Assembly: GCA_021108295.1 (NCBI GenBank)
Contig: JAIORF010000102.1
Span: 7,260 to 71,259 of the forward strand
DNA from: a bacterium
GTDB lineage: Bacteria; Patescibacteriota; Dojkabacteria; SC72
Reading direction: 5' to 3'
Length of the DNA: 64,000 nt
In this document: positions 8,798-34,377 of the stretch, in pieces
Position numbering within the stretch: the first letter of the stretch is position 1
Layout: each line of letters opens with the position of its first letter
The notes under the pieces: model-generated
The model's database searches: none
Told to the model about the DNA's origin: nothing
What the model saw: only the letters and a program-made list of their open reading frames with translations
Position numbers and translations under genes: made by a program

Positions 8798-8820
8798 TAT
8801 TATTTCTAAACATACTGTCT

Positions 8821-15304: not shown

Positions 15305-16849
15305 TTAATGTATTGTGTACACAGTTATCTGTACTCCGTCTTCTGTGATATTTGTGAGAGTGATGAGTTCATCTCTAGAGCGTGTGATTGTCCAGTATAT
15401 GATGTTTTCACTACTAATTAGTGGTGTTTTGTTGTCACCATCCTTGTCAGCGATGTATATGAAGTTGTCTTCTTTAAAGGAGATGTAGCTTGAGTTAGAG
15501 ATCCAACTTATATCTTCTATTTGATCAAAGAGTAAGTTTCCAATATCTTTAGTTCCTATAGTGACGGTATGGTCTCCATTTTCTTTATCGAATGTAAAGA
15601 TTTCATATTTCTTAGAATTCTCTAGAAGTAATTTATCATTATCAGGGGAGAACGCTATTAGTTGTACAGGGTAAGGAGATACAGTGATGTATTTGTCTGC
15701 TACAATATCATACCAGTATGTAGATTGAGTAGTTTGGATATATACACCTTCGCTACTTTGGTTGACGTAGAAGTCTGTAATTTCTCCTATAGTTTGTGTG
15801 CATTCTGGAGAGTTTGTAAAGAAGCTAAAATCAAAGCCTGTAGATCTGTAGTTCTCAATGTATTCTGTATTGTTCTGGAAATATACTGTAGGTATTACCT
15901 CTGTCTGGGAGGATCCATCAAGTTTGTATTGGAACAAAGCATATTTTAGAATGTCGTTAGGCGATGTTTCTAAGTGTTTGACGATGTAAAAGAAGCCTTC
16001 TTTGTCTGTAATCCATTTATCTAGTGGGTTTGTTTTCTTTAGGAGTAAAGACTTTGTACCTTTGTTGAAGTCGTATGAGAGAACTTCGGTCTTGGACTCT
16101 AGTATTAAGTATTTATTATCCAATGACCAAGTAGTGTCGTAATCAGAGAATTTAGAGAGATTTATTTGGTTTATAGCGAGATCTTTGTACTCAGAGGATT
16201 TATTTGTTGGGATTATATAGTTACTAGAGGCTGTACTATTGACGATATTTAGAAGGGCGAATTCTCCTGAGTGCGAGAGTAGTAGATCAATATCTTCAAT
16301 TATTCCCTCCTCTGTATCCTCTAGGCTCAAAATTACGGTAGATTTTATACCTAGTTCCCAGAATTGTGTATTAAGATCGTAATGTAGTAATTCGTAACGA
16401 GTTTCATCTTTAAGTAAGAGCAGTAAATGATTATCAGTATCATCTATCCAATATTTCTGTAGGATTTTGTCTGAACTAAACCCAATCTCTGACTTAATCT
16501 CTGATAGTATTAGCCAAGGGAATACGGGGGTAGATTTTTCTTCTAGAATTGTTACATCCTTTATCCAATCGTAGTAACCCTCTTTACTTACTTTGATAGA
16601 GTATGTGCCGACATTTAGTGCAGTGCTTTTACTTGTGCGTCCTATAGTTTCGTCATTTATCTCTATTGTTGCTAGGGTGGGAGAGCTTTCTACTGTAAGT
16701 ACACCTGTTTTTCTGACAGAATGGTTCGAAAAATCGATTCTCCAACCACTTGCGTATAGAAAAATTACTAGAGTTCCTGTATATATAGAGAGGGTGAGTA
16801 GAATAGATGTGAGCACTGGGAGGAGACTTTTGGACTTATTTGATTTCAT
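15305..16849 (-). CDS. Membrane-anchored PEGA-domain / beta-propeller-like hypothetical protein
   Basis: An N-terminal TM helix is followed by a PEGA-like segment (TLATIEINDETIGRTSKSTALNVGTYSIKVSKEGYYDW) and a repetitive beta-rich remainder. Confidence 0.5.
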   Translation of the reverse strand: MKSNKSKSLLPVLTSILLTLSIYTGTLVIFLYASGWRIDFSNHSVRKTGVLTVESSPTLATIEINDETIGRTSKSTALNVGTYSIKVSKEGYYDWIKDVTILEEKSTPVFPWLILSEIKSEIGFSSDKILQKYWIDDTDNHLLLLLKDETRYELLHYDLNTQFWELGIKSTVILSLEDTEEGIIEDIDLLLSHSGEFALLNIVNSTASSNYIIPTNKSSEYKDLAINQINLSKFSDYDTTWSLDNKYLILESKTEVLSYDFNKGTKSLLLKKTNPLDKWITDKEGFFYIVKHLETSPNDILKYALFQYKLDGSSQTEVIPTVYFQNNTEYIENYRSTGFDFSFFTNSPECTQTIGEITDFYVNQSSEGVYIQTTQSTYWYDIVADKYITVSPYPVQLIAFSPDNDKLLLENSKKYEIFTFDKENGDHTVTIGTKDIGNLLFDQIEDISWISNSSYISFKEDNFIYIADKDGDNKTPLISSENIIYWTITRSRDELITLTNITEDGVQITVYTIH

Positions 16850-16886: not shown

Positions 16887-17903
16887 ATGATAGGAAAGAA
16901 ATTAGGAATTGATTTAGGTACGGCCAACTCTGTGGTATTCGTGCAGGGGGAGGGTATCGTATTTGTAGAGCCAACTGTTGTGGCTATTGATGTTAATAGT
17001 TACAAAGTTATTGCTGTAGGAAAAGAAGCAAAGGAGATGATTGGTAAGACTCCTGAGAATATTGTAGCCAAGAGGCCTCTTAGGAATGGTGTTATCGCAG
17101 ATTCTCGGGTGACAGAAGCCTTGCTTAAATACTTCTTTGATAAGGCTTTGGGTAAGACTAGGTTTTTCAAACCGGATGTTGTGATAAGTGTGCCTGCAGG
17201 TATTACTACTGTAGAGCAGAGGGCTGTACTTAAGGCTGCTAATGCTGCTGGTGCAAAGAATATTACACTTCTTCCTGAACCACTGCTTGCTGCACTTGGT
17301 GCAGAACTTCCAATTAATACTTCCTCGGGTAATATGATAGTTAATATGGGAGGTGGTACTTCAGAAATTGCAGTAATCTCTTTGGATGGAATTGTAAGGT
17401 ATGATTCCTTGAGGGTGGCTGGAGATGCTATCAATGAGGCGATAATAGCATATATGAGAAAGAGAAAGGGTGTATTGATAGGAGAACAGACTGCAGAGAA
17501 AGTTAAGTTTGAAATAGGATCTGCACTTGAGATTGAAAAGCCCCTAGAGATGGAGGTAAGGGGTAGGGATGTTGGTGCAGGAGTACCTAAGGCAGTATTG
17601 GTTAATTCTAATGATATTGCTCAAGCTGTTAAGATGCCACTGAGAAAAATTATACAGTCCATTAAGGGTGTTCTTGAGCAAACTCCTCCTGAGCTTTCTG
17701 CAGACATTATAGATAGGGGTATGGTAATGAGTGGTGGTACTGCAGAGTTGAGAAATCTAGACAGATTGATATCCAAAGCTACAGGTGTTCCAGCCCATGT
17801 TGCTAATGAACCAATATTTTGTGTAGCTAAGGGTACTGGTATGGCTTTAGAGCTAATCGCTTCTGGACAAAGGGTCTTTGTCTTTGAAAAAAAACTTAGT
17901 TAG
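16887..17903 (+). CDS. mreB: Rod-shape-determining actin homologue MreB (copy 1)
   Basis: IGIDLGTANSVVFV phosphate-1 motif, DIGGGT-type motif (NMGGGTSEIAV), and MreB length. Confidence 0.9.
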   Translation: MIGKKLGIDLGTANSVVFVQGEGIVFVEPTVVAIDVNSYKVIAVGKEAKEMIGKTPENIVAKRPLRNGVIADSRVTEALLKYFFDKALGKTRFFKPDVVISVPAGITTVEQRAVLKAANAAGAKNITLLPEPLLAALGAELPINTSSGNMIVNMGGGTSEIAVISLDGIVRYDSLRVAGDAINEAIIAYMRKRKGVLIGEQTAEKVKFEIGSALEIEKPLEMEVRGRDVGAGVPKAVLVNSNDIAQAVKMPLRKIIQSIKGVLEQTPPELSADIIDRGMVMSGGTAELRNLDRLISKATGVPAHVANEPIFCVAKGTGMALELIASGQRVFVFEKKLS

Positions 17904-17917
17904 TGTATATTAACAGT

Positions 17918-19084
17918 ATGATTAGTATGTTTAGTAAAAAAGGAAGAAGTGAGAGAAAGTTAGAAGAAGTAACAAAGCTTCTTCAACGGCTTCGTATTCC
18001 AATTGGGTTGGTATTTACACCAACAAATCTCAAAGAAGAGAAAAAGAGGTTCTTTAATTCAGAAATGTATGAGCCTAATTTTGAGTATAGGGGGATAAAG
18101 AATAAGAATAATGAGATATTTAGAGAGTTGTCTGGTCTAAAGACTATTACAGATATTGACCCAAGGATTTCTGATTTCTATATTGAGTTAATAGAGTCAA
18201 AGAAAGACTCTAGTGCTTTAATGCATGGTGTGGGGAATAATGAATTGGTGACAGAACTGTCATTGAAAAAGTATGGAAAGGTTTCTCCGAAGCTTTTTAG
18301 AAATGCTAGTAGAGTGCTTAGGGGTAAGTTGGATAGTTATAATGTTGTTCAGGCAACTACTGTTGATAAAGGTAAGGTCTTGAATTACAATCAAATAGAT
18401 GAGGTTTTCAAGGTCGCTTTTGAAAGTCTTGGACTATCGGATTGGTCTATATTCCCTTCCAAAAACATTTCAAAGAATGCGGTTAAGGTTGGAATTAAAC
18501 GTAAACAGATATTTGTTGATCCAAATATCACACGATCAGAGTATAAGTTAAAGAAACTTCTTGTGCATGAGATTGGTACTCATGTTTTGCGATCACACAA
18601 TGGTTTTAAAACTGGGTTCCCAGCTTTAGGTAATGCTAATTTGCCCTCATATCTTGATGTAGAAGAGGGTCTTGCGACTTGGAATGAGGAAGCTATGGGT
18701 TTTCTTACTGATAAATGGCTTAAGAAGAAAGCTGGCTTGGTATGGGCAATATATATTGGAGAGGAGATGACGTTTAGGCAGTTGTATAATGCATTGTCAG
18801 GTAGTTTCTTAAAATATTCTGCATGGGATATTGCTTATAGGGTCAAGAGAGGACTAGGGGATACCAGTTATTCGGGAATATATGTGAAGGATGTAGTTTA
18901 TTTCAGGGGTTTTAGGAAGGTAAAGCGTGTATTGGAGAAGGATAGTGCAATGTATGAGAAGCTGTATGCTGGTAAGATAAATATTAAACAGACTAAGTGG
19001 GTTGATGAGGGGTTGTTACCAAAGCCACCAATTGTGCCGTCTAAGGAGTTGTGGAATGATATTTTTGAGAAAGCTAATCTCTAA
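17918..19084 (+). CDS. DUF1704 / QEGLA-motif (MATCAP-family) putative zinc metallopeptidase
   Basis: HEIGTH (HExxH) is followed by VEEGLATWNEE (QEGLA-like). The start is moved from the GTG at 17903 to the first ATG. The stop overlaps the convergent ATP-grasp gene by 11 nt. Confidence 0.5.
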   Translation: MISMFSKKGRSERKLEEVTKLLQRLRIPIGLVFTPTNLKEEKKRFFNSEMYEPNFEYRGIKNKNNEIFRELSGLKTITDIDPRISDFYIELIESKKDSSALMHGVGNNELVTELSLKKYGKVSPKLFRNASRVLRGKLDSYNVVQATTVDKGKVLNYNQIDEVFKVAFESLGLSDWSIFPSKNISKNAVKVGIKRKQIFVDPNITRSEYKLKKLLVHEIGTHVLRSHNGFKTGFPALGNANLPSYLDVEEGLATWNEEAMGFLTDKWLKKKAGLVWAIYIGEEMTFRQLYNALSGSFLKYSAWDIAYRVKRGLGDTSYSGIYVKDVVYFRGFRKVKRVLEKDSAMYEKLYAGKINIKQTKWVDEGLLPKPPIVPSKELWNDIFEKANL

Positions 19085-20030
19085 AGGCTGTAATCATAGC
19101 TTCTGCAATGTTTATAGGCTCTCCATCTGTAATTTTAGTCTCATAGGCTTTGAAACCAGGATGTAAGCTAATCTCTTGTATATATGGTTTATCGTTTTTA
19201 AACATAAAGTCTACTGCGATGAAGTCTGCATCGAAGATATTAGCGACCTTCTGTGCAATTTGTGTGATTTCTTCGTTTGGTTCGTTGTACATATGATAAC
19301 TTCCACCACTTACTGTCATAAAACCTTTTGTTGCCTTACGTTTCCAACCACCAATTACTTTACCAAACTTTACAAATATGCGTACGTCTTCTGGATTGGT
19401 AGAGAATTCTTGTAAAAAGAAGGCCTTATGGTCTTGTTTACATAAATGTTTTTGGTTTAGATCTTTTACATTGTCTAGTTTGTATACATTCTTTTTTACT
19501 TTCTTCTTACCAAATTTCCTATCAATTCTGTTTACTCCTGCGTATTCTTTGATAATTAGGGGGTAGTTGTTTAATACATCTCTAGCTTTAGTGTAATCGC
19601 CACTAGTAGAGTAGTATGTGTCAAAATATGGGATTTTGTGTGTAGCAAAGATTTGTGCAGTGTAGATTTTGTTGTAGTAGGGGAGTTTCTTGATAGCGTT
19701 ACTGTTATATACCAAGATCTTGTTATCAGGGTGAGATAAATTGTATTGATCAGTCCAGTCGACTATCAGTCTTTTCATCTGGTATTCTCTTGGACTATGT
19801 AAATTGTGACCTCTGAGTATGATATGAGAGTATTCTGTGATATGGTTACCTGCGAATTTTAGATGTGTTTCACCATCGAGTAGGAAGAATTCTATTTGGT
19901 TGTTGTATACAAAATCGTATGGAATATCTTTTTTGTCCAATTCCTCCATCATCCGTTTTACAGCTGAAGGGTATTTACCAACTCCTTTGACTTTTACTCG
20001 TGGTTCTTTGTCTATGATGAGGTATTTCAT
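19074..20030 (-). CDS. RimK-like ATP-grasp amidoligase (operon gene 5)
   Basis: ATP-grasp pattern: IKEYAGVNRIDRKFGKK, FFLQEF...EDVRIFVKFGKVIGGWKRK, and ADFIAVDFMFKNDKPYIQEISLHPGF. The ATG overlaps the upstream stop (TAATG). Confidence 0.6.
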   Translation of the reverse strand: MKYLIIDKEPRVKVKGVGKYPSAVKRMMEELDKKDIPYDFVYNNQIEFFLLDGETHLKFAGNHITEYSHIILRGHNLHSPREYQMKRLIVDWTDQYNLSHPDNKILVYNSNAIKKLPYYNKIYTAQIFATHKIPYFDTYYSTSGDYTKARDVLNNYPLIIKEYAGVNRIDRKFGKKKVKKNVYKLDNVKDLNQKHLCKQDHKAFFLQEFSTNPEDVRIFVKFGKVIGGWKRKATKGFMTVSGGSYHMYNEPNEEITQIAQKVANIFDADFIAVDFMFKNDKPYIQEISLHPGFKAYETKITDGEPINIAEAMITAFRD

Positions 20031-21739
20031 TATATTGTGTTGATTATTTTAATATGTTTCTTTCGTTTATATTTCTTTATAATCTTCATTTCGGTTTTGT
20101 GGGATTTAATGTCTTTTGTGACAAAGAGAATATCTATTTTATCAAATCCTAGTCCATGTTCTTTGACTTCATCTAGGTCTCTGTATTGTAGGATGATGGT
20201 GTCTAGGGCTGCGTTGACTTTGAGGGCTTCAATGGCCTTCCAGGTATCAATATTGTCATTAAATTCACAGTTATTAATTAATATCTTATGGTCTTTGTAT
20301 ACACCGACATTTTCTTCATTATTAATGTATCCTTTTTTCCTTAGTAGTGTAGGGATATCGTCTGTACTTTGGCCAATTACTACATATTTCTTTGTGTGAT
20401 TGTCTTTGAGTAGGGCTTGAACGTAGTAGGTGAGTGCTTCCGTTTGTACTTCTCCAATTACTGGGAAGAAGTTAAGGTATGATTCTGGCATAGTATTGAC
20501 CTCTAGTATTGCACCGTTGTCTTTTGTGAGTGGCTTTGAGATGTCTTTACACATTATATCTACACCTAAGGTAAATACATGCATTGTAGAGGCTATTGAT
20601 TCTACGATTATTTTTATCTCAGGAGATACTTTGTCTGAGAAGTCTTCTGTTATTCCTCCTCTACTCATACTTGCTATACCTCGTACATAGATTTTTTGAT
20701 TTTTTGTAGGTATAGATTCTAATGTTAAGCTCTGTTTTTCTAAGAAGGTTGTTAGTGGATCATCAAATATTATTGGCTTTAAGGTATGTGAAGGGTTACT
20801 TGTATTTCTTCTTGGGTCTTTGTTTGTTTCGTCTATGAGTTTCTTGATAGAAGATTTTCCATTTCCGATGATAAAGGCTGGTATTCGTTTGGTACAGACT
20901 TTTAGTTCCCCGTTGATAACCAAAAGCCTGTAGTCTGAGCCGTCTTTAGGGCCGTCTACCTGTTCCTGTATCATTATCTTTTTTTGCCAAGCACTTCTTT
21001 TTTTTGCTTCTACCTGTTTTGTGGCGTATTCTAAAGCATTGTAGGCTTTTTCCTTAGAGTCAATACCTACGACAACACCACTTCCTCCTGTTAGACCAGT
21101 TGGTTTGATAACTAGAGGCTTCTCATATTGAGCCCAGACTTTATCAATGTCTTTTTTGGAATCAATAATTTCCCATTTAGGTAGGGGCAGACCCATTCGT
21201 TCTATGATTTTGTTTGTTGACCATTTGTCTCGTTGAACTTTCATACCAAAGGTTGAGTCTTTTGTTGAAGCTATGGAGCAGGTTGCTTCAGATCCTTTAC
21301 CACAGCCTAGTGTGTAGTATCTATTCCAAGTGTAACCGAATCCTGCGGAGGTTCCGGGAACTATATCTTCGTTAGCAATTGTGAGTGTAGTTTCGTATCC
21401 TAGTTCCTGAGCTTTATGTAGTATTGGGATGGTAGACATAGAGTTAACTCTTTGTTTGATTACGGTGCCTAGTGTGTAATCTTGAGCTTCTTGTAGAGTT
21501 ATTTCTGAGTTGGAGAGTTTTCTAAAGGTTTTTGCACAATTTCTCCAGATACCTGGTAATTTGGAGCTTATAGTTAGGAGGTTGTTTTCTAATTTGTAGT
21601 TTTCAATAAATATTGGGTGAAATCCTTGGATTAGGTTTAGTAGTTTGAAGAGTTCTTCGCTTTCTTTAATGTCTGAGATCTTAATTTGAGTAGTAGGGGA
21701 TTCAAGGTTTAGGCCTTGTATTGTTTTGAGGTTTTTCAT
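20030..21739 (-). CDS. ATP-grasp ligase resembling the cyanophycin-synthetase N-terminal (G) domain, with N- and C-terminal extensions (operon gene 4)
   Basis: LVIKPTGLTGGSGVVVG, YRLLVINGELKV, and IIGNGKSSIKKLIDETNKDPRR resemble CphA-like GDGKxTIxELI..N.DPRR. MSRGGITEDFSDKV is also present. No Mur-ligase domain is seen. Confidence 0.6.
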   Translation of the reverse strand: MKNLKTIQGLNLESPTTQIKISDIKESEELFKLLNLIQGFHPIFIENYKLENNLLTISSKLPGIWRNCAKTFRKLSNSEITLQEAQDYTLGTVIKQRVNSMSTIPILHKAQELGYETTLTIANEDIVPGTSAGFGYTWNRYYTLGCGKGSEATCSIASTKDSTFGMKVQRDKWSTNKIIERMGLPLPKWEIIDSKKDIDKVWAQYEKPLVIKPTGLTGGSGVVVGIDSKEKAYNALEYATKQVEAKKRSAWQKKIMIQEQVDGPKDGSDYRLLVINGELKVCTKRIPAFIIGNGKSSIKKLIDETNKDPRRNTSNPSHTLKPIIFDDPLTTFLEKQSLTLESIPTKNQKIYVRGIASMSRGGITEDFSDKVSPEIKIIVESIASTMHVFTLGVDIMCKDISKPLTKDNGAILEVNTMPESYLNFFPVIGEVQTEALTYYVQALLKDNHTKKYVVIGQSTDDIPTLLRKKGYINNEENVGVYKDHKILINNCEFNDNIDTWKAIEALKVNAALDTIILQYRDLDEVKEHGLGFDKIDILFVTKDIKSHKTEMKIIKKYKRKKHIKIINTI

Positions 21740-21748
21740 TGGTTGGGA

Positions 21749-22735
21749 TTATGAATTTAGATATTTTTGTTGTATATATTTCATTATTGGTATTGCTACT
21801 CTTGCAATTTCTCCCTCATCTACTTTGTAGTGTATTCTAAGTCCTGGGTTGTAGTTGATTTCGTTAATACCACATTTCACTTTCTTGGTAATGTCTGGTG
21901 TTATTATATCTACACCTCCAAATTCTGTTCCTATGGCGTGTACTGCGTCTATTGCTAGCTGTTTGTAGTAAGGGTGTACTTCCTTATTGCATTCTTGTGT
22001 AGTTCCTCCTGTAGAGAGATTACAGCTATATCTTAGGATTATATCTTCTTTGTCTTGTGGTATGGAGTCTAGTGTCATATTGAGTTCACGGAGTCGTAAG
22101 TTTACTTCATTATCAATCTTGATTGGTTTTAAGAGGTCGGTTTTTCTTTTGTTATTAAAAAGATTTATTAGTTCTTGTATGCTGTTTTTACCATCGCCTA
22201 TTACATGTGCGGCTTTTCTTCTTACTGTACCTACGATTTCATTTCCTACTACTAGGAGTCTGTAGTTTTCTCCTTCTAGAAATTCTTCACCTAAGACGCC
22301 TATATTACCTTTTGATTTGTTTTTTGTTTTAGCTATGGTATAAGCCTCTAGGACTTCTTTTTCATTGCTTGGGAGTAGTGTAATTCCTATTCCTCCTAGT
22401 TGTTGTGTTGGTTTGATCACAATTCTTTTATATTTGGCAAAGAATTTTATTGCATCAATTGGGCTTTTGAGTTTCTCTTGTTTTGGAACTGGTATTGCAG
22501 ATTCTTCAAGTACTAGGTTTGTGAGGTGTTTTCTTTTTGCAATTGTTGCGGATGTGGTATTGGTAAGTGGTGTAGCGGTGTTTATTATGTGCCATACCTT
22601 ATCTTTGCATCTGAATTCTGCAAGAAGGCTTGGTACGAGTACTTTGTAGTGTATTTTTAATTCATCGGCAGCTTCTAGGTAGTATGCTAGGTGTACATTG
22701 CCAGCTTCTTTTAGGTAGTCTGTGTATGTTTTCAT
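21749..22735 (-). CDS. Stand-alone ATP-grasp ligase, cyanophycin-synthetase G-domain-like (operon gene 3)
   Basis: IVIKPTQQLGGIGITLL, YRLLVVGNEIVGTVRRKAAHVIGDGKNSIQELINLFN, and NLSTGGTTQECNKEVHP...GGVDIITPD. Confidence 0.6.
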   Translation of the reverse strand: MKTYTDYLKEAGNVHLAYYLEAADELKIHYKVLVPSLLAEFRCKDKVWHIINTATPLTNTTSATIAKRKHLTNLVLEESAIPVPKQEKLKSPIDAIKFFAKYKRIVIKPTQQLGGIGITLLPSNEKEVLEAYTIAKTKNKSKGNIGVLGEEFLEGENYRLLVVGNEIVGTVRRKAAHVIGDGKNSIQELINLFNNKRKTDLLKPIKIDNEVNLRLRELNMTLDSIPQDKEDIILRYSCNLSTGGTTQECNKEVHPYYKQLAIDAVHAIGTEFGGVDIITPDITKKVKCGINEINYNPGLRIHYKVDEGEIARVAIPIMKYIQQKYLNS

Positions 22736-22744
22736 ATATGTATA

Positions 22745-24211
22745 TTACTTAAATATAGAGGAGGTATCAATGAGGTATCCTGTGAGTTCAGATCTCCCTA
22801 TTACTAGAGGGTAGGGGATATCGTTTGTAATGACGGCGTTTAAGGCCTTTTTATCTCCAGATATTTTAATACGGATATTAATTACAGGTCTGATTACAAT
22901 TTGTCCATCTTCTACAATTTTTGCAAGTCTTACTATGTCTGGATGGTTGGTGATTTTCTTCCCTTTGGCATCAATATATTCTTGTGCGTCTTTAAAGGTG
23001 GGGAAGCTCTTTGGTGTTTCTAACTGTTTGAAGTATTTATTTATATCGGTGTATCCTGTTCTGCTAGAGAGTCTTGTGGAGATACGGGTGGTAAGTACAC
23101 CGGTGTCTATGAATGATTTAGTTAGTTCTTTTTCTATCTTTATTTTTGTTTTCTTTTTCTTGTTTAGGATTTTAGGTTTGTGGTATACGTATACTTTTTC
23201 AGTGATGTTGACGACCTTACGACCACTTATAGATTCGATGCTTTCTTCAATTTCTCCCCCAAAGAGGTTTTTTCCTATTCTAATACCGTGTTTGATGCTT
23301 TTTACTTCTAGTCCTTTGACTTTTTCGAGTCTCCATCTTAGACCTGCTTGATTTGCTACCTGTATTCCTAGTCCTGGTCTTGCGTTGACCTCAAACACAA
23401 CGGGTCCTTTGTCACGGTCAATTGCGATGTCTACTCCGATATATCCGAGTTTTGAGGCTTTTTGGCATTTGAGGGCAATTGTAAGGAGGTTGTTCCAATT
23501 TGGTATTTGGATACCACTTAGAGATTTGTTTTCTTCAAGGTCTACTGTTTTGTCAATCATTTCGTATGTATCACTAATTAGGCTTGTTGGTTGCATATGC
23601 ATTGAGTAGGTGGTTATCCCTGTGCTTATATCGATGCCTGTACATATTGCTCCAGTGTGTAGGTTGGCTGTACCGTTAGATCTTTTGGTAGGTAGTCGTG
23701 TCATTGCCATGATGGGGACTCCATTAAAGCAGATTATTCTAATATCAGGTACTCCTTTGTAGGAGTATTGTTTAAGGAATGGGTCTGTTTTTACTCTTTC
23801 TTCGATGATTGCAGTATCTTTTCGGGAACCCATGGAGTATCTGCCTTCTAGGATGTTTTCTATATGTAGTATTATGTCCCTTTTAGACATTATCTTGCCG
23901 TTTGGTCTAATCCAGGCGTTTTGTCCTTTCTTTTTGCCGTAGAATACTATGATTCCGTTTCCTCCTGTTCCTTTGTTTGGTTTTATCACAAAGCTTTTTG
24001 GTAGTGATTCCCAGTCAAGGTATTTCAGTTGTTTTTTGCTTCTAATGAGTTTGTATACGTCGGGTGTTTTTATCCCTTCTTTTTTTAATATTCTTTTGGT
24101 GACTATCTTGTTGTCTGCAATGGCTTTTGCAGAGAGAGAGTTGTATGGTCTTATATATTCTTGGTTTCTTCTGTTTAATCCAAGAATGTCTTTGAGGGTG
24201 TTCCTATGCAT
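22745..24211 (-). CDS. ATPgrasp_ST / alpha-L-glutamate-ligase-related RimK-like ATP-grasp (operon gene 2)
   Basis: The N-terminal ILGLNRRNQEYIRPYN motif typifies the 7TM-associated RimK-related family. It is followed by FVIKPNKGTGGNGIIV and GVDIAIDRDKGPVVFEVNARPGL. Confidence 0.6.
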   Translation of the reverse strand: MHRNTLKDILGLNRRNQEYIRPYNSLSAKAIADNKIVTKRILKKEGIKTPDVYKLIRSKKQLKYLDWESLPKSFVIKPNKGTGGNGIIVFYGKKKGQNAWIRPNGKIMSKRDIILHIENILEGRYSMGSRKDTAIIEERVKTDPFLKQYSYKGVPDIRIICFNGVPIMAMTRLPTKRSNGTANLHTGAICTGIDISTGITTYSMHMQPTSLISDTYEMIDKTVDLEENKSLSGIQIPNWNNLLTIALKCQKASKLGYIGVDIAIDRDKGPVVFEVNARPGLGIQVANQAGLRWRLEKVKGLEVKSIKHGIRIGKNLFGGEIEESIESISGRKVVNITEKVYVYHKPKILNKKKKTKIKIEKELTKSFIDTGVLTTRISTRLSSRTGYTDINKYFKQLETPKSFPTFKDAQEYIDAKGKKITNHPDIVRLAKIVEDGQIVIRPVINIRIKISGDKKALNAVITNDIPYPLVIGRSELTGYLIDTSSIFK

Positions 24212-24866
24212 TATCTTTTTCTTCTAGTATAGATTGAAATCTAAGAAGGTCTTTGAATCTTAGGCCTTTGAATTGTCCAATTAGTATGTTTATGAGTATG
24301 AATACGGGTATTATCCAGAGGTTGTTTACTAGGTTGGTGGAGATTACGTCTCTTGTGATGATAAACCAGCCTAGTGCTGAGATTGCGATTGTAGAGAAGA
24401 GTGTAAGGAATGATGTTTTGAGGGATTTCTTTACATATTGTTTTGTAAAGAAGTCTCCTAGTGCTGCGATTGAGATCATAGCTAGGGATGGGATGTATGC
24501 CATGTTTTCTAGTGTTAGTCCATATTTGTCTATTACCATTAGGAAAAGTGTTAGGGAGAGTATGAGTATGCAGTAGTTGATAGCGATTCTTGTTATGTAG
24601 TGCATTCTAATCCTTCGTAGCACAGAGTAGGAGAGTAGGGTGCTAAAGATTACTACGGTAGTAATTGCTAATCCATACTTGAGTCCTGTGTAGGAGTATG
24701 CGATTGCGAGTATTATGGGTGCGTATATTCCGTATGTTTTGTTACCGAAGATGTATCTTCCGATACTTACTAGGGTAGCTAGTAGAGCAATTGTGATGAA
24801 GAGCTCTAAAGTTTGACTGGGTACACCATTTCCCAGTATCCAGGTTGTAAATGGAGAGTATTCCAT
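24204..24866 (-). CDS. Seven-helix integral membrane protein, probable 7TM partner of the ATP-grasp ligases (operon gene 1)
   Basis: Seven hydrophobic helices in 220 aa. It overlaps the downstream ATP-grasp gene by 8 nt, and it is the first gene after the rplL terminator. Confidence 0.5.
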   Translation of the reverse strand: MEYSPFTTWILGNGVPSQTLELFITIALLATLVSIGRYIFGNKTYGIYAPIILAIAYSYTGLKYGLAITTVVIFSTLLSYSVLRRIRMHYITRIAINYCILILSLTLFLMVIDKYGLTLENMAYIPSLAMISIAALGDFFTKQYVKKSLKTSFLTLFSTIAISALGWFIITRDVISTNLVNNLWIIPVFILINILIGQFKGLRFKDLLRFQSILEEKDNA

Positions 24867-24934
24867 AGGTAGTGTTTATGACAATTTAGTATTAATTTGT
24901 GAGCAGATTAATTAATTATACTTATTAAGAGGGG

Positions 24935-24957
24935 AAAAAGCCACTCTTACGAGTGGC
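24935..24957 (-). terminator. Intrinsic terminator of rplL
   Basis: Minus-strand RNA reads AAAGCCACUCGUAAGAGUGGCUUUUUCCCC. Stem GCCACUC/GAGUGGC is followed by a U-tract. Confidence 0.7.
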
Positions 24958-24983
24958 TTTCTTTGTTCACAAAAGTTAGAGTA

Positions 24984-26071: not shown

Positions 26072-26755
26072 GTAGGAAAGAAAAAGAACACCCTTAATAT
26101 TTGTTGACCGAAGTCAGAAATATTCCTCTGCTAGGAGGGGGTGTTCTCGTTCATATGGGGGTGGGGTTATTCCTAGTCGTCGTAATCCTCTATTAGTACG
26201 GGATATACTGCTGTGATCCCTGCTAAGGCGATGAGTACGTATACCAATACAACGGGATTCCAGCTCGGTATCATTATTACGCTGAGATATGCTATCGCTC
26301 CTCCTACAAGATAGGGGAAGCTTTTCTTGCAGATGAATATTGCAAGATCCTCGAGGATCTCTCCTAGGAATTTTTGTGTTTCAGGCTTCATCTCTGTCAC
26401 TTGACTTGTATCTTTCCTCATCTGTCTTATTCTTTTCTGCATTTTATTTCTCCTTTTAACAATATTGTTTGTTTTTATTATAACCATACTATTAAACTTC
26501 AACTGCTTAAAATCTAATATATGGTTATAACTATCCTAAGGAGACTAACCTTTTTTCCATATGAAAACTTGTATAAATATGGATATAAATATCACATAAT
26601 ACAAGAATATTTTAAAGAACTAGTTTCTTATAAAAGAAACATAAAAAAGATAAGGAAATCTCTCTCTATGAAGCTTTTATGTATGTTTTGGGGATATATT
26701 AAGGTGCAGTATTAACTATCTACTACATTATACTATAGGACGACATTAGTGTCAA
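26072..26755 (-). repeat. Cassette unit A: sigma70 promoter, ~250-nt conserved leader, small 2-TM ORF, conserved structured terminator
   Basis: Promoter TTGACA-17-TATAAT at 26727-26755 (minus). The leader 26473-26726 is near-identical to copies at 27157, 27843 and 30855. The terminator stem AGAACACCC/GGGTGTTCT at 26085-26147 (inner TGAC-CGAA-GTCA hairpin) is followed by a U-tract. Confidence 0.8.
26173..26442 (-). CDS. Small two-TM membrane protein (cassette A cargo, 89 aa)
   Basis: The start is moved to the internal Met (MQKRIRQMRKD...), preceded by AAGGAGA. The N-terminal MKFNSMVIIK of the listed ORF is read from the conserved leader. Two hydrophobic helices. Confidence 0.55.
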   Translation of the reverse strand: MQKRIRQMRKDTSQVTEMKPETQKFLGEILEDLAIFICKKSFPYLVGGAIAYLSVIMIPSWNPVVLVYVLIALAGITAVYPVLIEDYDD

Positions 26756-26767
26756 TTACACGTATGG

Positions 26768-27437
26768 GCAAGAAAGAAAAAAGCACCCTTAATATGTATT
26801 GTTGACTAATGAAAGTCAAAAATATCATAAACCTCTGTTAGGAGGGGGTGCTTTATTCATATGGTTAGGGATGCCAGATAGTAGACAGAAATTTCGAGAT
26901 AATCTGAAATGATCCATGAATACTTATCGCTTCTACAATATATACGAATAATAGTAATGCTACACATATATATGTGAAGAGGATAAGTACCCTCGTTTCT
27001 TCCTTGATTGGATTCCAGACCTTGGGTATTTTAGTGGGTATTGGGCACTCTAAAGACCACTTGAGAAGAGAGAATCCCCCATAAAAAAGCCCAGCTATGA
27101 CTCCCGTTATGGTAATCGCATCATAGATGTTCATGTTTAAGCTCCTTTTTAATTGTTTTATTATAACCATACTATTAAACTTCAACTGCTTAAAATCTAA
27201 TATATGGTTATAACTATCCTAAGGAGACTAACCTTTTTTCCATATGAAAACTTGTATAAATATGGATATAAATATCACATAATACAAGAATATTTTAAAG
27301 AACTAGTTTCTTATAAAAGAAACATAAAAAAGATAAGGAAATCTCTCTCTATGAAGCTTTTATGTATGTTTTGGGCTGTTTAAAGGTGCAGTATTACTAC
27401 CTACTATATTATACTATAGGGCAGGGGGTGTAGTCAA
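26768..27437 (-). repeat. Cassette unit B (same architecture as A)
   Basis: Promoter TTGACT-18-TATAAT at 27408-27437. Leader 27157-27407. Terminator stem AAAGCACCC/GGGTGCTTT at 26780-26854, a compensatory variant of the stem in A and D. Confidence 0.8.
26865..27134 (-). CDS. Small two-TM membrane protein (cassette B cargo, 89 aa)
   Basis: The start is at the internal Met (MNIYDAITITG...), preceded by AAAAGGAG. It is unrelated in sequence to the cargo of A, C and D. Confidence 0.55.
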   Translation of the reverse strand: MNIYDAITITGVIAGLFYGGFSLLKWSLECPIPTKIPKVWNPIKEETRVLILFTYICVALLLFVYIVEAISIHGSFQIISKFLSTIWHP

Positions 27438-27449
27438 TATGGTGTATGG

Positions 27450-28124
27450 GTGAGAAAGAAAAAGCACCCTTAAATTATGTATTGTTGACTAATGAAAGTC
27501 AGAATAAATAAAGTGGGTGCTTTTTTCATATGGGGGGGGTTAGAACAAGTTCCAAACAAATACGACAGCCATTATGAACAGAAGGGCAATATTCTTAGCC
27601 GCTTTACGGGCAAGCTTTCTTGCTTCTTCTTCTCTTGCTTCGTCTTCTTTTGCTTCAGATTCTACAACTAAGGTATTCACCTTATAGGTAGTTTGTATTA
27701 TCACTATTAGTGATAATATTCCAACCTGGATTTGCTGCGTTTTTAACAACGAGAGCAAAGCTTCCAAGAAAAGCATCGCATCCTTAAAGAAAAAAACTAC
27801 ATCCTTAATCATTTTATGTCTCCTTTATATTATAGAATATTGTTTTATTATAACCATACTATTAAACTTCAACTGCTTAAAATCTAATATATGGTTATAA
27901 CTATCCTAAGGAGACTAACCTTTTTTCCATATGAAAACTTGTATAAATATGGATATAAATATCACATAATACAAGAATATTTTAAAGAACTAGTTTCTTA
28001 TAAAAGAAACATAAAAAAGATAAGGAAATCTCTCTCTATGAAGCTTTTATGTATGTTTTGGGCTGTTTAAAGGTGCAGTATTAACTATCTACTACATTAT
28101 ACTATAGGGCAGTGGTGTGGTCAA
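27450..28124 (-). repeat. Cassette unit C (same architecture)
   Basis: Promoter TTGACC-17-TATAAT at 28096-28124. Leader 27843-28095. Terminator stem AAAGCACCC/GGGTGCTTT at 27461-27523. Confidence 0.8.
27540..27812 (-). CDS. Small two-TM membrane protein (cassette C cargo, 90 aa)
   Basis: MIKDVVFFFKDAMLFLEALLSLL... The charged middle is EAKEDEAREEEARKLARKAAK. AAGGAGA RBS. Confidence 0.55.
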   Translation of the reverse strand: MIKDVVFFFKDAMLFLEALLSLLKTQQIQVGILSLIVIIQTTYKVNTLVVESEAKEDEAREEEARKLARKAAKNIALLFIMAVVFVWNLF

Positions 28125-33309: not shown

Positions 33310-34365
33310 ATGAAACCATTTAATTCAGTATGGAATCTATTTACCTATGATTTAGGTATAGATTTAGGTACTGTTAATACAATAGTATACTTGAGGGGAC
33401 ACGGTATTGTGATATCCGAGCCTTCTGTAGTTGCTATCAACAAACGAACCAAGAAGATTCTAGCTGTGGGTAATGAAGCACGTAAGATGATAGGTAGGAC
33501 ACCTGCCAATATTGTTGCTATCCGACCATTAAAGCATGGTGTAATTTCTGACTTTGATACTACTCAAGCTATGATTCACCACTTCATACACAAGACGCAT
33601 CGAGGTTTTAAGAATAATTGGAAGGTACCAAGACCACGAGTCATTGTCGGTGTACCATCTTCTGTAACTGAAGTTGAAAGACAGGCTGTGATAGATGCTT
33701 CTAAGACTGCAGGAGCTAGAGAGGTTTTTCTTGTAGAAGAAGCTATGGCAGCAGCAATTGGGGCAAGTTTGCCGATAGAAGATGCCTCTGGAAGCATGAT
33801 TATCGATATTGGTGGTGGAACTACAGATATTGCTGTGTTGTCTCTTGGAGATGTAGTGGTGGATAATACGATAAGGGTAGCAGGGGATGAGATGAACCAA
33901 GACATCATTGATTATGTAAAAGAGAAGTACAACATACTGATTGGTGAAAGAACTGCAGAGGATGTGAAGATCGCTATTGGTTCTGCAATACCTCTTAGTG
34001 ACGAGAAAGAAGTCATATTACAAGGTAGAGATTTAGTAACTGGTCTTCCTAAGTCTGTACAGGTAAGTAGTGTAGAGATAAGGGAGGCAATAATGGCATC
34101 CATAATGGTTATCACAGAGGCTGTAAAGGAAGCTATAGAAGATACCCCCCCAGAGCTAATTAGAGACTTACTTTCTGCTGGTTTACACCTTGCAGGAGGT
34201 GGAGCATTGATAAAAGGGTTGGATAGGTACTGGTCTCATGAATTAAATGTCCCTGTACATATTGTAGACGACCCTATCTCTGCTGTAGCTAGAGGCACTG
34301 CACAGATGCTAGACCATATAGATCTTCTTGATAGGGTTCAATCTTCGTGGAAAGAATTAGTTTAG
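33310..34365 (+). CDS. mreB: MreB (copy 2), first gene of the mreBCD-mrdA cluster
   Basis: LGIDLGTVNTIVYL, DIGGGTTDIAV, full length. Confidence 0.9.
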   Translation: MKPFNSVWNLFTYDLGIDLGTVNTIVYLRGHGIVISEPSVVAINKRTKKILAVGNEARKMIGRTPANIVAIRPLKHGVISDFDTTQAMIHHFIHKTHRGFKNNWKVPRPRVIVGVPSSVTEVERQAVIDASKTAGAREVFLVEEAMAAAIGASLPIEDASGSMIIDIGGGTTDIAVLSLGDVVVDNTIRVAGDEMNQDIIDYVKEKYNILIGERTAEDVKIAIGSAIPLSDEKEVILQGRDLVTGLPKSVQVSSVEIREAIMASIMVITEAVKEAIEDTPPELIRDLLSAGLHLAGGGALIKGLDRYWSHELNVPVHIVDDPISAVARGTAQMLDHIDLLDRVQSSWKELV

Positions 34366-34377
34366 TGGTTTAAAAAG

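What the first reader, a model, noticed from the sequence alone, without database searches (positions are those of the whole stretch)
17918..24866. Operon of a 7-TM membrane protein plus four ATP-grasp amidoligases, converging on a DUF1704/MATCAP-family metallopeptidase
On the minus strand, 24866 to 19074 is a tightly packed unit. The 8-nt and 1-nt overlaps (TAATG) and 10-nt gaps indicate translational coupling. It contains:
- a 7-helix membrane protein;
- an ATPgrasp_ST / alpha-L-glutamate-ligase-related enzyme with the N-terminal LGLNRRN...YIRPYN motif (this family is known to pair with 7TM or inactive-transglutaminase partners);
- a stand-alone cyanophycin-synthetase G-domain-like ATP-grasp;
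- a 569-aa CphA-like ATP-grasp with extra N- and C-terminal domains (GNGKSSIKKLIDETNKDPRR);
- a RimK-like ATP-grasp.
The converging gene at 17918-19084 encodes an HEIGTH / EEGLA (QEGLA-like) DUF1704 protein, the domain family of the eukaryotic tubulin detyrosinase MATCAP. That makes a ligase and peptidase pair. I do not know a described system with four different ATP-grasp ligases and no Mur-ligase (CphA M-domain) or PgsBCA components. The set suggests stepwise non-ribosomal assembly of an amino-acid polymer or peptide tag (poly-Glu, poly-Asp or cyanophycin-like), on a membrane or surface target, or as a storage or signalling product. The DUF1704 peptidase could be the trimming or reversing enzyme.
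Basis: partly seen in the sequence, partly recalled or inferred. Interest (0 to 1): 0.8.

Follow-up and report, generated by a model that had tools for sequence, protein, structure and literature searches.

The report
Four-ligase, two-peptidase peptide-building gene cluster
A tiny-genome Dojkabacteria (CPR) bacterium carries, like nearly all its relatives, a six-gene set of a membrane protein, four ATP-driven amide-bond ligases and two peptidases, an enlarged version of the little-understood Rlo/Rim systems that probably makes and trims an unknown acidic peptide or polymer.

Summary
All six ORFs exist and the family calls are right. Three things were missed.
- The 488-aa ligase is RloC-type and carries a C-terminal retropepsin (RimB/RloA-like) protease domain.
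- The 569-aa protein has the full cyanophycin synthetase 2 architecture: N domain, G domain and a dead M-domain remnant.
- The MATCAP-like gene is co-transcribed with a second mreB paralogue.

The CphA2-like family appears restricted to Candidatus Dojkabacteria. Of 46 species-level loci with enough flank, 43 carry all six genes. In deep-branching members the order and one flank differ and MATCAP lies inside the ligase cluster, yet the six genes stay together.

Catalytic residues are invariant in all six proteins. The 328-aa ligase keeps CphA1's aspartate-recognition residues. The 569-aa enzyme has an invariant, different acceptor site. Neither keeps the residue that binds cyanophycin's arginine, so this is not a cyanophycin or poly-γ-glutamate operon.

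MATCAP-family genes are independently paired with ATP-grasp genes in Proteobacteria. A haloarchaeon fuses the 7TM and RloC-type domains.

Best reading: an expanded, membrane-coupled Rlo/Rim-type system that builds and trims an acidic peptide or polymer. The product is unproven. It is a new variant of a known kind.

The parts
24204..24866 (-). Gene 1: 220-aa polytopic membrane protein. It is RloB-like in its 7TM part only and has no transglutaminase-like domain.
   Evidence: PF14402 5.6e-13, covering profile positions 56-247 of 248. NF052267 RloB matches only profile positions 312-507 of 508, 32.6 bits against a cut-off of 900. About seven hydrophobic segments. Present in all evaluable loci. 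Fused to the ligase domain in Halobacterium.
22745..24211 (-). Gene 2: 488-aa fusion of an RloC-type ATP-grasp ligase and a retropepsin domain.
   Evidence: PF14397 1.8e-68 over residues 14-299; TIGR02291 301 bits against a cut-off of 314. More than 120 orthologue clusters, all 480-497 aa, at 68-89% identity. K77, E137, E138, D156, R158, D261, E274, N276 and R278 are 100% conserved in 72 sequences.
22748..23206 (-). C-terminal retropepsin (RimB/RloA-like aspartic peptidase) domain of gene 2, about residues 336-488, with D369-T370-G371.
   Evidence: The domain profile hits RloA2 (9g59, E 0.0056) and RloA (9g58, E 0.015), including the MDTG..TS segment. The AF2 model has pLDDT 78-90 over residues 360-480. 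The top 45 Foldseek PDB hits are all retropepsins: Ddi1, RloA, RloA2, DUF785, HIV PR. D369 and T370 are 100% conserved and G371 88%. Pfam PF05618 is recorded as a weak hit on the L009 orthologue.
21749..22735 (-). Gene 3: 328-aa stand-alone CphA1 G-domain-like ATP-grasp ligase that keeps the aspartate-recognition residues.
   Evidence: TIGR02068 8.5e-62, aligned to CphA positions 190-471. PDB CphA1 7lgm 5e-38. K69, K108, R159, R173, N239, D276, E292, N294 and G298 are 100% conserved and R300 98% in 79 sequences. These map to TeCphA1 K220, K261, R309, R323, N394, D431, E450, G456 and R458 (PMC9427784).
20030..21739 (-). Gene 4: 569-aa CphA2-like protein. N domain about residues 1-140, G domain about 141-452, and a truncated inactive M-domain remnant about 453-569.
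   Evidence: AF2 model pLDDT 89.9, pTM 0.87. Best Foldseek PDB hit is CphA2 7ta5, E 1.3e-37, TM 0.68/0.67 over 599 columns. K172, K212, R271, R285, D394, E413 and N415 are invariant in 84 sequences, and so are the family-specific S357 and E419; Y421 is conserved in 83 of 84. The M-domain P-loop GTNGKT is replaced by GQSTDD.
19074..20030 (-). Gene 5: 318-aa divergent RimK/LysX-type ATP-grasp ligase.
   Evidence: PF08443 9.4e-11 over the full domain; TIGR00768 71 bits against a cut-off of 143. Aligns to Pseudomonas RimK 7qyr. K161, D215, R217, D274 and E286 are 100% conserved. The usual E-x-N is E-x-S288, with S in 91% of sequences.
17903..19084 (+). MATCAP/DUF1704-family zinc metallopeptidase, 388-393 aa, with a start at GTG 17903 or ATG 17918. 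It converges on gene 5 and overlaps it by 11 nt.
   Evidence: PF08014 112 bits against a cut-off of 27. H217, E218, H222, E249, E250, G251 and L252 are 100% conserved in 66 sequences. It is adjacent to the RimK-like gene (gap under 300 nt) in 52 of 64 loci. It lies inside the ligase cluster in L009 and L010.
16887..17903 (+). Second MreB paralogue, immediately upstream of MATCAP and probably co-transcribed with it. This is an association only; a functional link is unproven.
   Evidence: The stop codon TAG at 17901-17903 overlaps GTG 17903. The MATCAP-to-mreB gap is under 300 nt in 57 of 61 loci. The canonical mreB-mreC-PBP2 operon is elsewhere, at 33310-37686. No mreB is present near the cluster in L009 or L010.
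24915..24960 (-). Operon boundary: the rplL intrinsic terminator (24935-24960, AAAGCCACTCGTAAGAGTGGCTTTTT) followed by a perfect TATAAT hexamer (24915-24920), 48 nt upstream of the 7TM start codon.
   Evidence: Read directly from the sequence. The stem-loop was also picked up by the terminator scan. Promoter function is inferred, not shown.

Best explanation
This is an expanded, membrane-coupled Rlo/Rim-type amide-ligase system that is characteristic of Candidatus Dojkabacteria.

Shown here:
- A five-gene operon encodes an RloB-like 7TM protein, an RloC-type ATP-grasp ligase fused to a retropepsin peptidase, a CphA1-G-like ligase that keeps the aspartate-binding residues, a CphA2-architecture ligase with an invariant altered acceptor site, and a RimK/LysX-type ligase.
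- A MATCAP-family zinc peptidase gene travels with the operon.
- All active sites are conserved.

Inferred mechanism:
1. The cytoplasmic ligases activate peptide carboxylates as acyl-phosphates, one after another, and add amino acids. Asp and Glu are the most likely, given the retained Asp site and the poly-Glu specificity of RimK, RimB and RloA.
2. This builds an acidic oligopeptide or a cyanophycin-like hetero-polymer. The product is not cyanophycin.
3. The 7TM protein docks the RloC-type ligase at the membrane, or passes the product across it.
4. The fused retropepsin cuts within the chain and may also stimulate its ligase, as RimB does for RimK.
5. The MATCAP-like enzyme removes C-terminal residues, resetting or maturing the chain end.

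For an amino-acid auxotroph with a genome of about 0.5-0.8 Mb, the product may be an envelope or osmoprotective polymer, or an amino-acid reserve.
For: - Family and domain assignments.
- The rlo operon parallel, with genetics showing that RloB and RloC make something the RloA proteases must remove, and that RloA cleaves runs of 8 or more Glu: PMC12239564.
- RimB both trims poly-Glu and stimulates RimK about fourfold, and RimBK hybrid proteins exist: PMC11957791.
- 7TM-ATPgrasp_ST single-chain fusion in Halobacterium sp. DL1, plus the shared N-terminal L-x-x-N-x-R-N..Y....N motif.
- 43 of 46 evaluable species loci carry all six genes.
- Rearranged deep-branch loci L009 and L010 keep all six genes together, with MATCAP inside the cluster and a different downstream flank.
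- MATCAP-family genes lie next to GshB-type ATP-grasp genes in alpha- and gamma-proteobacteria, with variable gene order and variable FGase fusion state.
- Catalytic residues are invariant in all enzymes.
- Residue mapping onto TeCphA1 and CphA2 shows the Asp site kept in the 328-aa ligase, and a distinct, invariant S357/E419/Y421 site in the 569-aa enzyme.
- The operon has its own boundary after the rplL terminator.
Against: - There is no product or expression data. Every functional step rests on homology.
- The physiological product of the model Rlo system is itself unknown.
- Both CphA-like ligases lack the P-loop His of CphA1 and CphA2, and the RimK-like ligase has E-x-S instead of E-x-N, so the chemistry may differ from the models.
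- In the main clade MATCAP is joined more tightly to an mreB paralogue (57 of 61 loci under 300 nt) than to the ligase operon (52 of 64). Sporadic unrelated genes are inserted between RimK-like and MATCAP, and three loci lack one component nearby.
- The whole region is syntenic in the main clade, so much of the co-occurrence there could be vertical inheritance.
- Polymer, short defined peptide and protein tag cannot be told apart from sequence.
Confidence: 0.55

Rival explanations
1. Protein tagging. The ligases extend the C-terminus or a side chain of a specific protein with Glu/Asp residues, and the two peptidases trim the tag. The models are RimK/RimB on ribosomal protein S6 and TTL/TTLL with MATCAP on tubulin. 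Candidate targets are ribosomal proteins (the cluster always abuts rplJ-rplL) or the MreB paralogue co-transcribed with MATCAP.
For: - RimK-family and RloC-type ligases, and RimB-like proteases, act on poly-glutamylated RpsF.
- Eukaryotic MATCAP is a protein C-terminal carboxypeptidase (Pfam PF08014 description).
- The rplJL adjacency is kept in both cluster layouts, and mreB2-MATCAP is operon-like in 57 of 61 loci.
Against: - The C-terminal residues of L7/L12 (A, E, K, Q or V) and of MreB2 (R, T, N, S and others) are not conserved and not acidic across Dojkabacteria.
- The CphA-G / GshF / Ngg clade, to which two of the four ligases belong, acts on free peptides or polymers rather than proteins.
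- No recurrent small 'substrate' gene is found in or beside the cluster.
- mreB2 is absent near the cluster in the deep-branch loci.
- rpsF could not be examined.
Confidence: 0.2
2. A short, defined non-ribosomal peptide metabolite of 3-6 residues, for example a glutathione-like thiol, an osmolyte or a cofactor tail. Each of the four ligases would add one residue, and the peptidases would recycle the product.
For: - The closest relatives of the CphA-like G domains include GshF and N-acetylglutaminylglutamine synthetase, both small-molecule ligases.
- Proteobacterial MATCAP homologues sit with GshB-type ligases and N-formylglutamate-amidohydrolase-like enzymes, which suggests small-peptide metabolism.
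- In CphA2 the N and M domains are structural only (PMC10273328).
- One lineage (L081) has a C45/AAT Ntn-hydrolase gene inside the operon.
Against: - RloA and RimB-type retropepsins need long acidic runs (8 or more Glu), which argues for chains rather than tri- or tetrapeptides.
- The CphA2-type N-G-M architecture is so far known only from polymerases.
- A 7TM partner is not needed for a soluble metabolite.
Confidence: 0.15
3. MATCAP is not part of the system. It belongs functionally with the MreB paralogue, or is an unrelated housekeeping peptidase, and merely abuts the five-gene ligase operon because the region is syntenic in this lineage.
For: - It is on the opposite strand and shares an operon-like junction with mreB2.
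- It is closer to mreB2 than to the RimK-like gene when insertions occur. In L049 and L059, 3.8 kb separates it from the ligases but only about 40 nt from mreB2.
- L064 and L083 have the ligase operon without MATCAP nearby.
Against: - In L009 and L010 MATCAP sits between the RimK-like and CphA2-like genes with no mreB in 21 kb.
- MATCAP-family genes are independently coupled to ATP-grasp ligase genes in Proteobacteria, with different orders and fusions.
Confidence: 0.25
4. An ordinary cyanophycin (or poly-gamma-glutamate) synthesis operon that has simply diverged.
For: Source databases annotate the 569-aa family as 'cyanophycin synthetase'. The best sequence and fold matches are CphA1 and CphA2.
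Against: - TIGR02068 scores about 210 bits against a cut-off of 850.
- There is no active Mur-ligase M domain: the P-loop Lys is lost.
- The residue that binds the Arg side chain of the cyanophycin primer (E215 in CphA1, D212 in CphA2) is not conserved in either protein. The P-loop His267 is Gly. In the 569-aa enzyme N394, G456 and R458 are S, E and Y.
- No PgsB- or CapA-type domains are present.
Confidence: 0.04

Closest known systems
rloABC operon of Pseudomonas aeruginosa and other Gammaproteobacteria (Lormand et al., mBio 2025, PMC12239564)
   Same: An RloC-type ATP-grasp ligase (PF14397 / TIGR02291), a 7TM_transglut membrane partner and a retropepsin-like aspartic peptidase are encoded together. 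The ligase is about 41% identical to a Legionella RloC and shares the N-terminal motif.
   Different: The membrane protein lacks the periplasmic inactive-transglutaminase domain. The retropepsin is fused to the C-terminus of the cytoplasmic ligase and has no signal peptide, whereas RloA is a separate secreted protein. Three further ATP-grasp ligases and a MATCAP-family peptidase are added. The host is a CPR bacterium, not a proteobacterium.
RimK-RimB and RimBK hybrid proteins (Little et al., JBC 2025, PMC11957791)
   Same: A cytoplasmic ATP-grasp Glu ligase is physically coupled to a retropepsin that trims poly-Glu and stimulates the ligase. Ligase-protease fusion proteins exist.
   Different: In RimBK the protease is N-terminal and the ligase is RimK-type. 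Here the protease is C-terminal and the ligase is RloC-type. The separate RimK-like gene here scores below the rimK_fam cut-off and has E-x-S instead of E-x-N. An S6 target has not been examined.
Cyanophycin synthetase 2 (CphA2; PDB 7ta5, 8fxh) and CphA1
   Same: The 569-aa protein shares the N + G + truncated inactive M architecture, the ATP/Mg and acyl-phosphate residues, and Tyr at the CphA1-R458 position as in StCphA2. The 328-aa protein keeps the CphA1 Asp-recognition set.
   Different: Identity is only about 20-30%. The P-loop His is Gly. N394 and G456 are Ser and Glu in the 569-aa enzyme. The primer-Arg-binding acidic residue is absent in both. No active M domain exists anywhere in the cluster. 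The family is confined to Dojkabacteria.
Proteobacterial FGase / QEGLA (MATCAP-family) / GshB-like ATP-grasp gene trio, and the eukaryotic TTL/TTLL-MATCAP tubulin cycle
   Same: A MATCAP/DUF1704 HExxH metallopeptidase is genomically or functionally paired with ATP-grasp amide ligases.
   Different: The Dojkabacteria protein is a stand-alone 388-aa domain at about 25% identity, with EEGLA instead of QEGLA. It scores below the TIGR02421 cut-off (131 bits against 339). It has no FGase partner, and its ligase partners belong to other ATP-grasp families. No tubulin-like acidic-tail substrate is evident.
Halobacterium sp. DL1 plasmid protein (L094:4182-5936), a 7TM_transglut + ATPgrasp_ST fusion
   Same: A 7TM-only module with no transglutaminase domain is joined directly to an RloC-type ligase, mirroring genes 1 and 2 of the window, which overlap by 8 nt.
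   Different: It is a single polypeptide with no retropepsin domain, no CphA-like or RimK-like ligases nearby and no MATCAP. The host is an archaeon.

Membership tests
Rlo system (RloA/RloB/RloC) | RloC-type ATP-grasp ligase (PF14397; TIGR02291) | tested here: met
   PF14397 231 bits against a cut-off of 31. TIGR02291 301.2 bits, just under its equivalog cut-off of 314.2. 41% identity to Legionella RloC.
Rlo system (RloA/RloB/RloC) | [quoted passage not shown] | tested here: not met
   Only the 7TM half is present. NF052267 matches positions 312-507 of 508 at 32.6 bits against a cut-off of 900. The protein is 220 aa, and rplL lies upstream.
Rlo system (RloA/RloB/RloC) | RloA: a separate, secreted retropepsin with a signal peptide | tested here: not met
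   A retropepsin fold and the DTG motif are present, but as the C-terminal domain of the cytoplasmic ligase. This holds in all of the more than 120 orthologue clusters.
RimK / RimB (and RimBK) | RimK-family alpha-L-glutamate ligase (TIGR00768) with the canonical E-x-N Mg site | tested here: inconclusive
   PF08443 passes (42 bits against 21). TIGR00768 scores 71 bits against 143. E286 is 100% conserved but N is replaced by S288 in 91% of sequences.
RimK / RimB (and RimBK) | Substrate RpsF with a C-terminal Glu-Glu | not tested
   rpsF is not in the window, and the genome could not be searched.
Cyanophycin synthetase 1 (CphA1) | Active Mur-ligase-like M domain that adds Arg | tested here: not met
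   The 328-aa protein has no M domain. The 569-aa protein has a remnant of about 115 aa in which the P-loop GTNGKT is GQSTDD. TIGR02068 scores about 210 bits against 850.
Cyanophycin synthetase 1 (CphA1) | G-domain catalytic set (K220, K261, R309, R323, D431, E450) | tested here: met
   Invariant in 84 sequences of the 569-aa family and 79 sequences of the 328-aa family.
Cyanophycin synthetase 1 (CphA1) | Asp-recognition residues N394, S396, G456, R458 | tested here: inconclusive
   Met in the 328-aa ligase: N239 100%, S/T241, G298 100%, R300 98%. Not met in the 569-aa enzyme: S357, S359, E419, Y421, all invariant or nearly so.
Cyanophycin synthetase 1 and 2 | Acidic residue binding the Arg side chain of the (beta-Asp-Arg)n primer (E215 in CphA1, D212 in StCphA2), and the P-loop His267 | tested here: not met
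   E215 aligns to the variable position K167 (K, E, N or T) in the 569-aa family and to Thr in the 328-aa protein. H267 aligns to Gly in both.
Cyanophycin synthetase 2 (CphA2) | N + G + truncated inactive M architecture | tested here: met
   Best Foldseek PDB hit is 7ta5, E 1.3e-37, TM 0.68/0.67 over 599 columns, with a model pLDDT of 89.9. Tyr421 sits where CphA2 has Tyr/Phe and CphA1 has R458.
Cyanophycin synthetase 2 (CphA2) | Polymerises beta-Asp-Arg dipeptides | not testable with these tools
   This needs enzymology. The differing substrate-site residues argue against it.
MATCAP / DUF1704 (PF08014) | Pfam domain above the gathering score, with HExxH and the (Q/E)EGLA motif | tested here: met
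   112.3 bits against 27, covering profile positions 2-330 of 365. H217, E218, H222, E249, E250, G251 and L252 are 100% conserved in 66 orthologues.
MATCAP / DUF1704 (PF08014) | Equivalog of the proteobacterial QEGLA protein (TIGR02421) | tested here: not met
   131 bits against a cut-off of 338.65. About 25% identity. No FGase domain or FGase neighbour.
MATCAP / DUF1704 (PF08014) | C-terminal (tyrosine) carboxypeptidase activity on an acidic protein tail | not testable with these tools
   No biochemical data are available. No conserved acidic or aromatic C-terminus was found on neighbouring L7/L12 or MreB2.
Poly-gamma-glutamate synthesis (PgsBCA / CapBCA) | PgsB Mur-ligase-type synthetase, plus CapA and CapC | tested here: not met
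   None of these domains appears in any of the six proteins.

The most novel reading that the evidence does not exclude
A bacterial analogue of the eukaryotic 'tubulin code'. A dedicated MreB (actin-like) paralogue, co-transcribed with a MATCAP-family carboxypeptidase and flanked by four ATP-grasp ligases (the superfamily of TTL and TTLL), would be reversibly extended and trimmed by these enzymes to tune cell shape or envelope growth in Dojkabacteria. More broadly, the cluster would write and erase a poly-amino-acid mark on a cytoskeletal or ribosomal protein.
Probability: 0.06. Interest if true: 0.92.

Novelty: new variant of a known kind. Interest (0 to 1): 0.62.

Why it matters
If the inference holds, Dojkabacteria devote about 1% of a minimal genome to a conserved multi-ligase machine that makes an undescribed peptide or biopolymer.

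- **New enzymes.** It would give a CphA2-architecture enzyme with a new, invariant acceptor site, and a stand-alone Asp-adding G domain. Both are attractive for biopolymer enzymology.
- **A simpler Rlo model.** The system is compact and cytoplasmic, with ligase and protease fused. [quoted passage not shown]
- **Bacterial MATCAP function.** It is a concrete setting in which to learn what bacterial MATCAP-family peptidases do. The repeated pairing with ATP-grasp ligases suggests the ligase/carboxypeptidase logic of the tubulin cycle has prokaryotic roots.
- **CPR biology.** A conserved envelope polymer or amino-acid-storage polymer would bear on how these auxotrophic episymbionts live.

Tried and rejected
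- **Sub-domain Pfam scans.** Scans of the unassigned N- and C-terminal regions at E up to 10 found nothing. Profile-versus-PDB search and structure prediction were needed instead.
- **Neighbouring proteins as tail substrates.** I asked whether L7/L12 or MreB2 have conserved acidic or aromatic C-termini. They do not.
- **A hidden seventh component.** I looked in the insertions that occasionally split the cluster. Their contents are heterogeneous and shared only between close relatives: a GT4 glycosyltransferase, an alpha/beta hydrolase, Wzy_C, a histidine kinase, a DUF4143 ATPase and ORFans.
- **Giant multi-ATP-grasp proteins as Rosetta stones.** They combine CphA-like G domains with AMP-binding, acylphosphatase, PGA_cap, LPG_synthase_C or YheCD modules. 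None has 7TM, retropepsin or MATCAP, so they show only that such ligases work in series.
- **Recent duplication.** The two CphA-like genes are only 31% identical.
- **Canonical cyanophycin or poly-gamma-glutamate operon.** Rejected on the domain and residue tests.
- **Spread beyond Dojkabacteria.** The most distant full-length relatives (33-45% identity) are still Dojkabacteria. A non-Dojkabacteria Patescibacteria G-like gene is solitary.
- **Literature.** No paper links Dojkabacteria or Patescibacteria to this cluster. Iyer et al. 2009 (Mol Biosyst 5:1636), which first predicted the associations between ATP-grasp ligases, 7TM/inactive-transglutaminase proteins and peptidases, is not held in the library, so statements about it rest on my memory and on citations in other papers.
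- **Other limits.** The afdb50 fold library was unavailable. The AF2 model of the 488-aa protein was poor outside the C-terminal domain. Promoter-like and terminator-like site counts were no higher than in shuffled sequence.

Full report
**1. Observation**

The window is AT-rich, at about 37% GC. It comes from a Candidatus Dojkabacteria (WS6, CPR/Patescibacteria) MAG. The 569-aa protein is identical to NCBI K8R14_02905 on a 472-kb contig, and its relatives are named Dojkabacteria or WS6.

All six ORFs exist at the stated coordinates. On the minus strand:
- 24866-24204 and 24211-22745 overlap by 8 nt.
- The next two junctions are 9-nt gaps.
- 21739-20030 and 20030-19074 share one base (TAATG).
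- The plus-strand gene, 17903 or 17918 to 19084, overlaps the last ligase gene by 11 nt.

An rplL terminator (24935-24960) and a TATAAT hexamer 48 nt upstream of the first start codon set the operon apart from rplJL.

**2. What the proteins are**

Three additions matter.

(a) *The 488-aa ATPgrasp_ST protein is the RloC type.* It scores 301 bits on TIGR02291 and is 41% identical to the ligase of a canonical Legionella rloABC trio. Its unassigned C-terminal ~150 residues form a retropepsin domain.
- A profile of this domain hits the solved RloA2 and RloA structures, including the MDTG..TS active-site segment.
- This part of the AF2 model is confident, and its top 45 PDB matches are all retropepsins.
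- D369 and T370 are invariant and G371 is 88% conserved in 72 orthologues.
- Every orthologue cluster is 480-497 aa, so the fusion is fixed in the lineage.

(b) *The 569-aa protein models at pLDDT 89.9.* Its best structural match over its whole length is cyanophycin synthetase 2 (7ta5). It therefore has an N domain, a G domain and a truncated M domain. The Mur-ligase P-loop is destroyed: GQSTDD in place of GTNGKT.

(c) *The 7TM protein corresponds only to the membrane half of RloB*.

**3. Active sites**

I used the experimentally defined TeCphA1 residues (PMC9427784), the CphA2 papers (PMC10273328), and alignments of 66-84 orthologues per family.
- Both CphA-like ligases keep the ATP, Mg and acyl-phosphate residues without exception.
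- The 328-aa ligase also keeps N394, S396, G456 and R458, the residues that hold the incoming aspartate.
- The 569-aa enzyme has S, S, E and Y at those positions, invariant or nearly so. Tyr at the R458 position is shared with CphA2.
- Neither protein keeps the acidic residue that binds the arginine side chain of the cyanophycin primer. Both replace the P-loop His with Gly.
- The RloC module, the RimK-like ligase (which has E-x-S rather than E-x-N) and the MATCAP-like HExxH / EEGLA site are all conserved.

These are live enzymes under purifying selection, and they are not cyanophycin synthetases.

**4. Distribution and linkage**

The 569-aa family has only about a dozen full-length clusters at the 50%-identity level. 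Even the most distant members (33-45% identity) are Dojkabacteria, and canonical CphA1 enzymes come next.

A scan of one genome per species returned 80 loci at 40% identity or more, all Dojkabacteria or unclassified Patescibacteria MAGs. Of 46 loci with enough flanking sequence, 43 have all six genes.

In the main clade the whole region is syntenic: rplJL, the cluster, MATCAP, mreB2, PEGA, uvrA. On its own that proves little. Two deep-branching genomes, L009 and L010, are more informative. There rplJL is inverted, the downstream flank is pseudouridine synthase and a tRNA synthetase, no mreB is nearby, and MATCAP lies between the RimK-like and CphA2-like genes. All six genes still stay together.

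Independent support for a ligase-MATCAP partnership comes from Proteobacteria.
- In Rhizobiaceae, and in a record labelled Roseateles but flagged UNVERIFIED_ORG, the order is FGase, QEGLA/MATCAP, then a GshB-type ATP-grasp.
- In Photobacterium the ATP-grasp comes first and FGase is fused to MATCAP.

Independent support for the 7TM-ligase pair is a single-chain 7TM_transglut + ATPgrasp_ST protein in Halobacterium sp. DL1, together with the shared N-terminal motif.

**5. A complication**

The MATCAP gene starts at or within 15 nt of the stop codon of an mreB gene. That mreB is a second paralogue, because the canonical mreB-mreC-PBP2 operon lies at 33310-37686. Across species, MATCAP lies within 300 nt of mreB2 in 57 of 61 loci, against 52 of 64 for the RimK-like gene. 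When insertions occur, MATCAP stays with mreB2. I therefore keep 'MATCAP belongs with MreB2' as a live rival at about 0.25, and the tubulin-code-like reading as the most novel possibility not excluded.

Neither MreB2 nor L7/L12 shows a conserved C-terminal residue. The insertions contain no recurrent extra gene.

**6. Mechanism (inferred)**

Genetics in Pseudomonas show that RloB and RloC make something that becomes harmful unless the RloA proteases remove it, and that RloA cleaves runs of 8 or more Glu. RimB both trims poly-Glu and stimulates RimK about fourfold, and RimBK fusion proteins exist.

By analogy, the Dojkabacteria RloC-retropepsin fusion, docked on its 7TM partner, would make and size-limit an acidic chain. 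The Asp-adding G-like ligase, the RimK-like ligase and the CphA2-architecture enzyme would add further residues or polymerise units. The MATCAP-like enzyme would remove C-terminal residues.

My rough split for the product is:
- oligomer or polymer: about 0.45
- short defined peptide: about 0.15-0.2
- protein tag: about 0.2
- something else: the remainder

Overall confidence that this is an expanded Rlo/Rim-type peptide-ligation and trimming system is 0.55.

**7. Comparison and novelty**

The core of the cluster (7TM, RloC-type ligase, retropepsin) is a known association, found here in a new form: there is no transglutaminase domain, and the protease is cytoplasmic and fused to the C-terminus of the ligase. 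I found no description of the following additions:
- two CphA-like ligases with distinct sites;
- a RimK-like ligase;
- a MATCAP-family peptidase;
- fixation of the whole set across an entire CPR lineage.

It fails the membership tests for CphA1, RloB, RloA, TIGR02421 and PgsBCA. It meets those for PF14397, PF08014 and the CphA2 architecture.

Verdict: a new variant of a known kind. It is interesting (0.62) mainly because it points to an unknown product and new CphA-type specificities, and because it offers a compact model for both Rlo systems and bacterial MATCAP function.

Noticed in passing
window 26076-28115 (between rplJ and rplA): Three tandem units of about 685 nt. Each has a 245-nt core that is 92-100% identical (26469-26713, 27152-27396, 27839-28083). 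On the minus strand each core covers about 211 nt of upstream sequence plus the first ~11 codons ('MKFNSMVIIK', TTG start) of small, otherwise different, TM-like ORFs. No Rfam match at E up to 0.1. Other Dojkabacteria also carry small unannotated ORFs in this spacer.
   Followed up: partly
window 33310-37686 and 16887-17903: Two MreB paralogues. One is in a canonical mreB-mreC-(162 aa)-PBP2 operon. The other is paired with the MATCAP-like gene and is divergent from a PEGA-domain membrane protein (15305-16849) across only about 37 nt.
   Followed up: partly
window 8755-10218: A RuBisCO large-subunit homologue (PF00016 and PF02788), as reported for some CPR lineages.
   Followed up: no
window 41941-43077: Ribosomal protein S2 carries a C-terminal extension that matches the RNA polymerase alpha CTD / helix-hairpin-helix domain.
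   Followed up: no
window 54400-56139 and 56226-58847: Two large ORFs of 579 and 873 aa with no Pfam match at 1e-5.
   Followed up: no
proteins P0253, P0255, P0258, P0261, P0263, P0262, P0265: Giant proteins of 770-1,965 aa contain two or three ATP-grasp modules related to the CphA G domain. These are fused to AMP-binding, acylphosphatase, PGA_cap (CapA), LPG_synthase_C, YheCD-type or MmgE/PrpD domains. They look like uncharacterised multi-ligase assembly lines.
   Followed up: partly
L081:9007-9984 (+); L080:12514-14746; L076:15036-16379: Lineage-specific insertions inside the cluster. L081 has a C45/AAT Ntn-hydrolase gene in-operon between the G-like and CphA2-like genes. L080 and L081 have a GT4 glycosyltransferase plus an alpha/beta hydrolase. 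L076 has a Wzy_C O-antigen-ligase-like gene between MATCAP and mreB2. This is a faint hint of a cell-surface theme.
   Followed up: partly
L013:4038-7041 (Photobacterium sp. GJ3 plasmid pGJ3-1, an unannotated record): A GshB-type ATP-grasp gene overlaps a 665-aa FGase-MATCAP fusion gene. The alpha-proteobacterial counterparts have FGase as a separate gene, and their 632-aa QEGLA protein has an N-terminal ~275-aa region with no Pfam match.
   Followed up: partly
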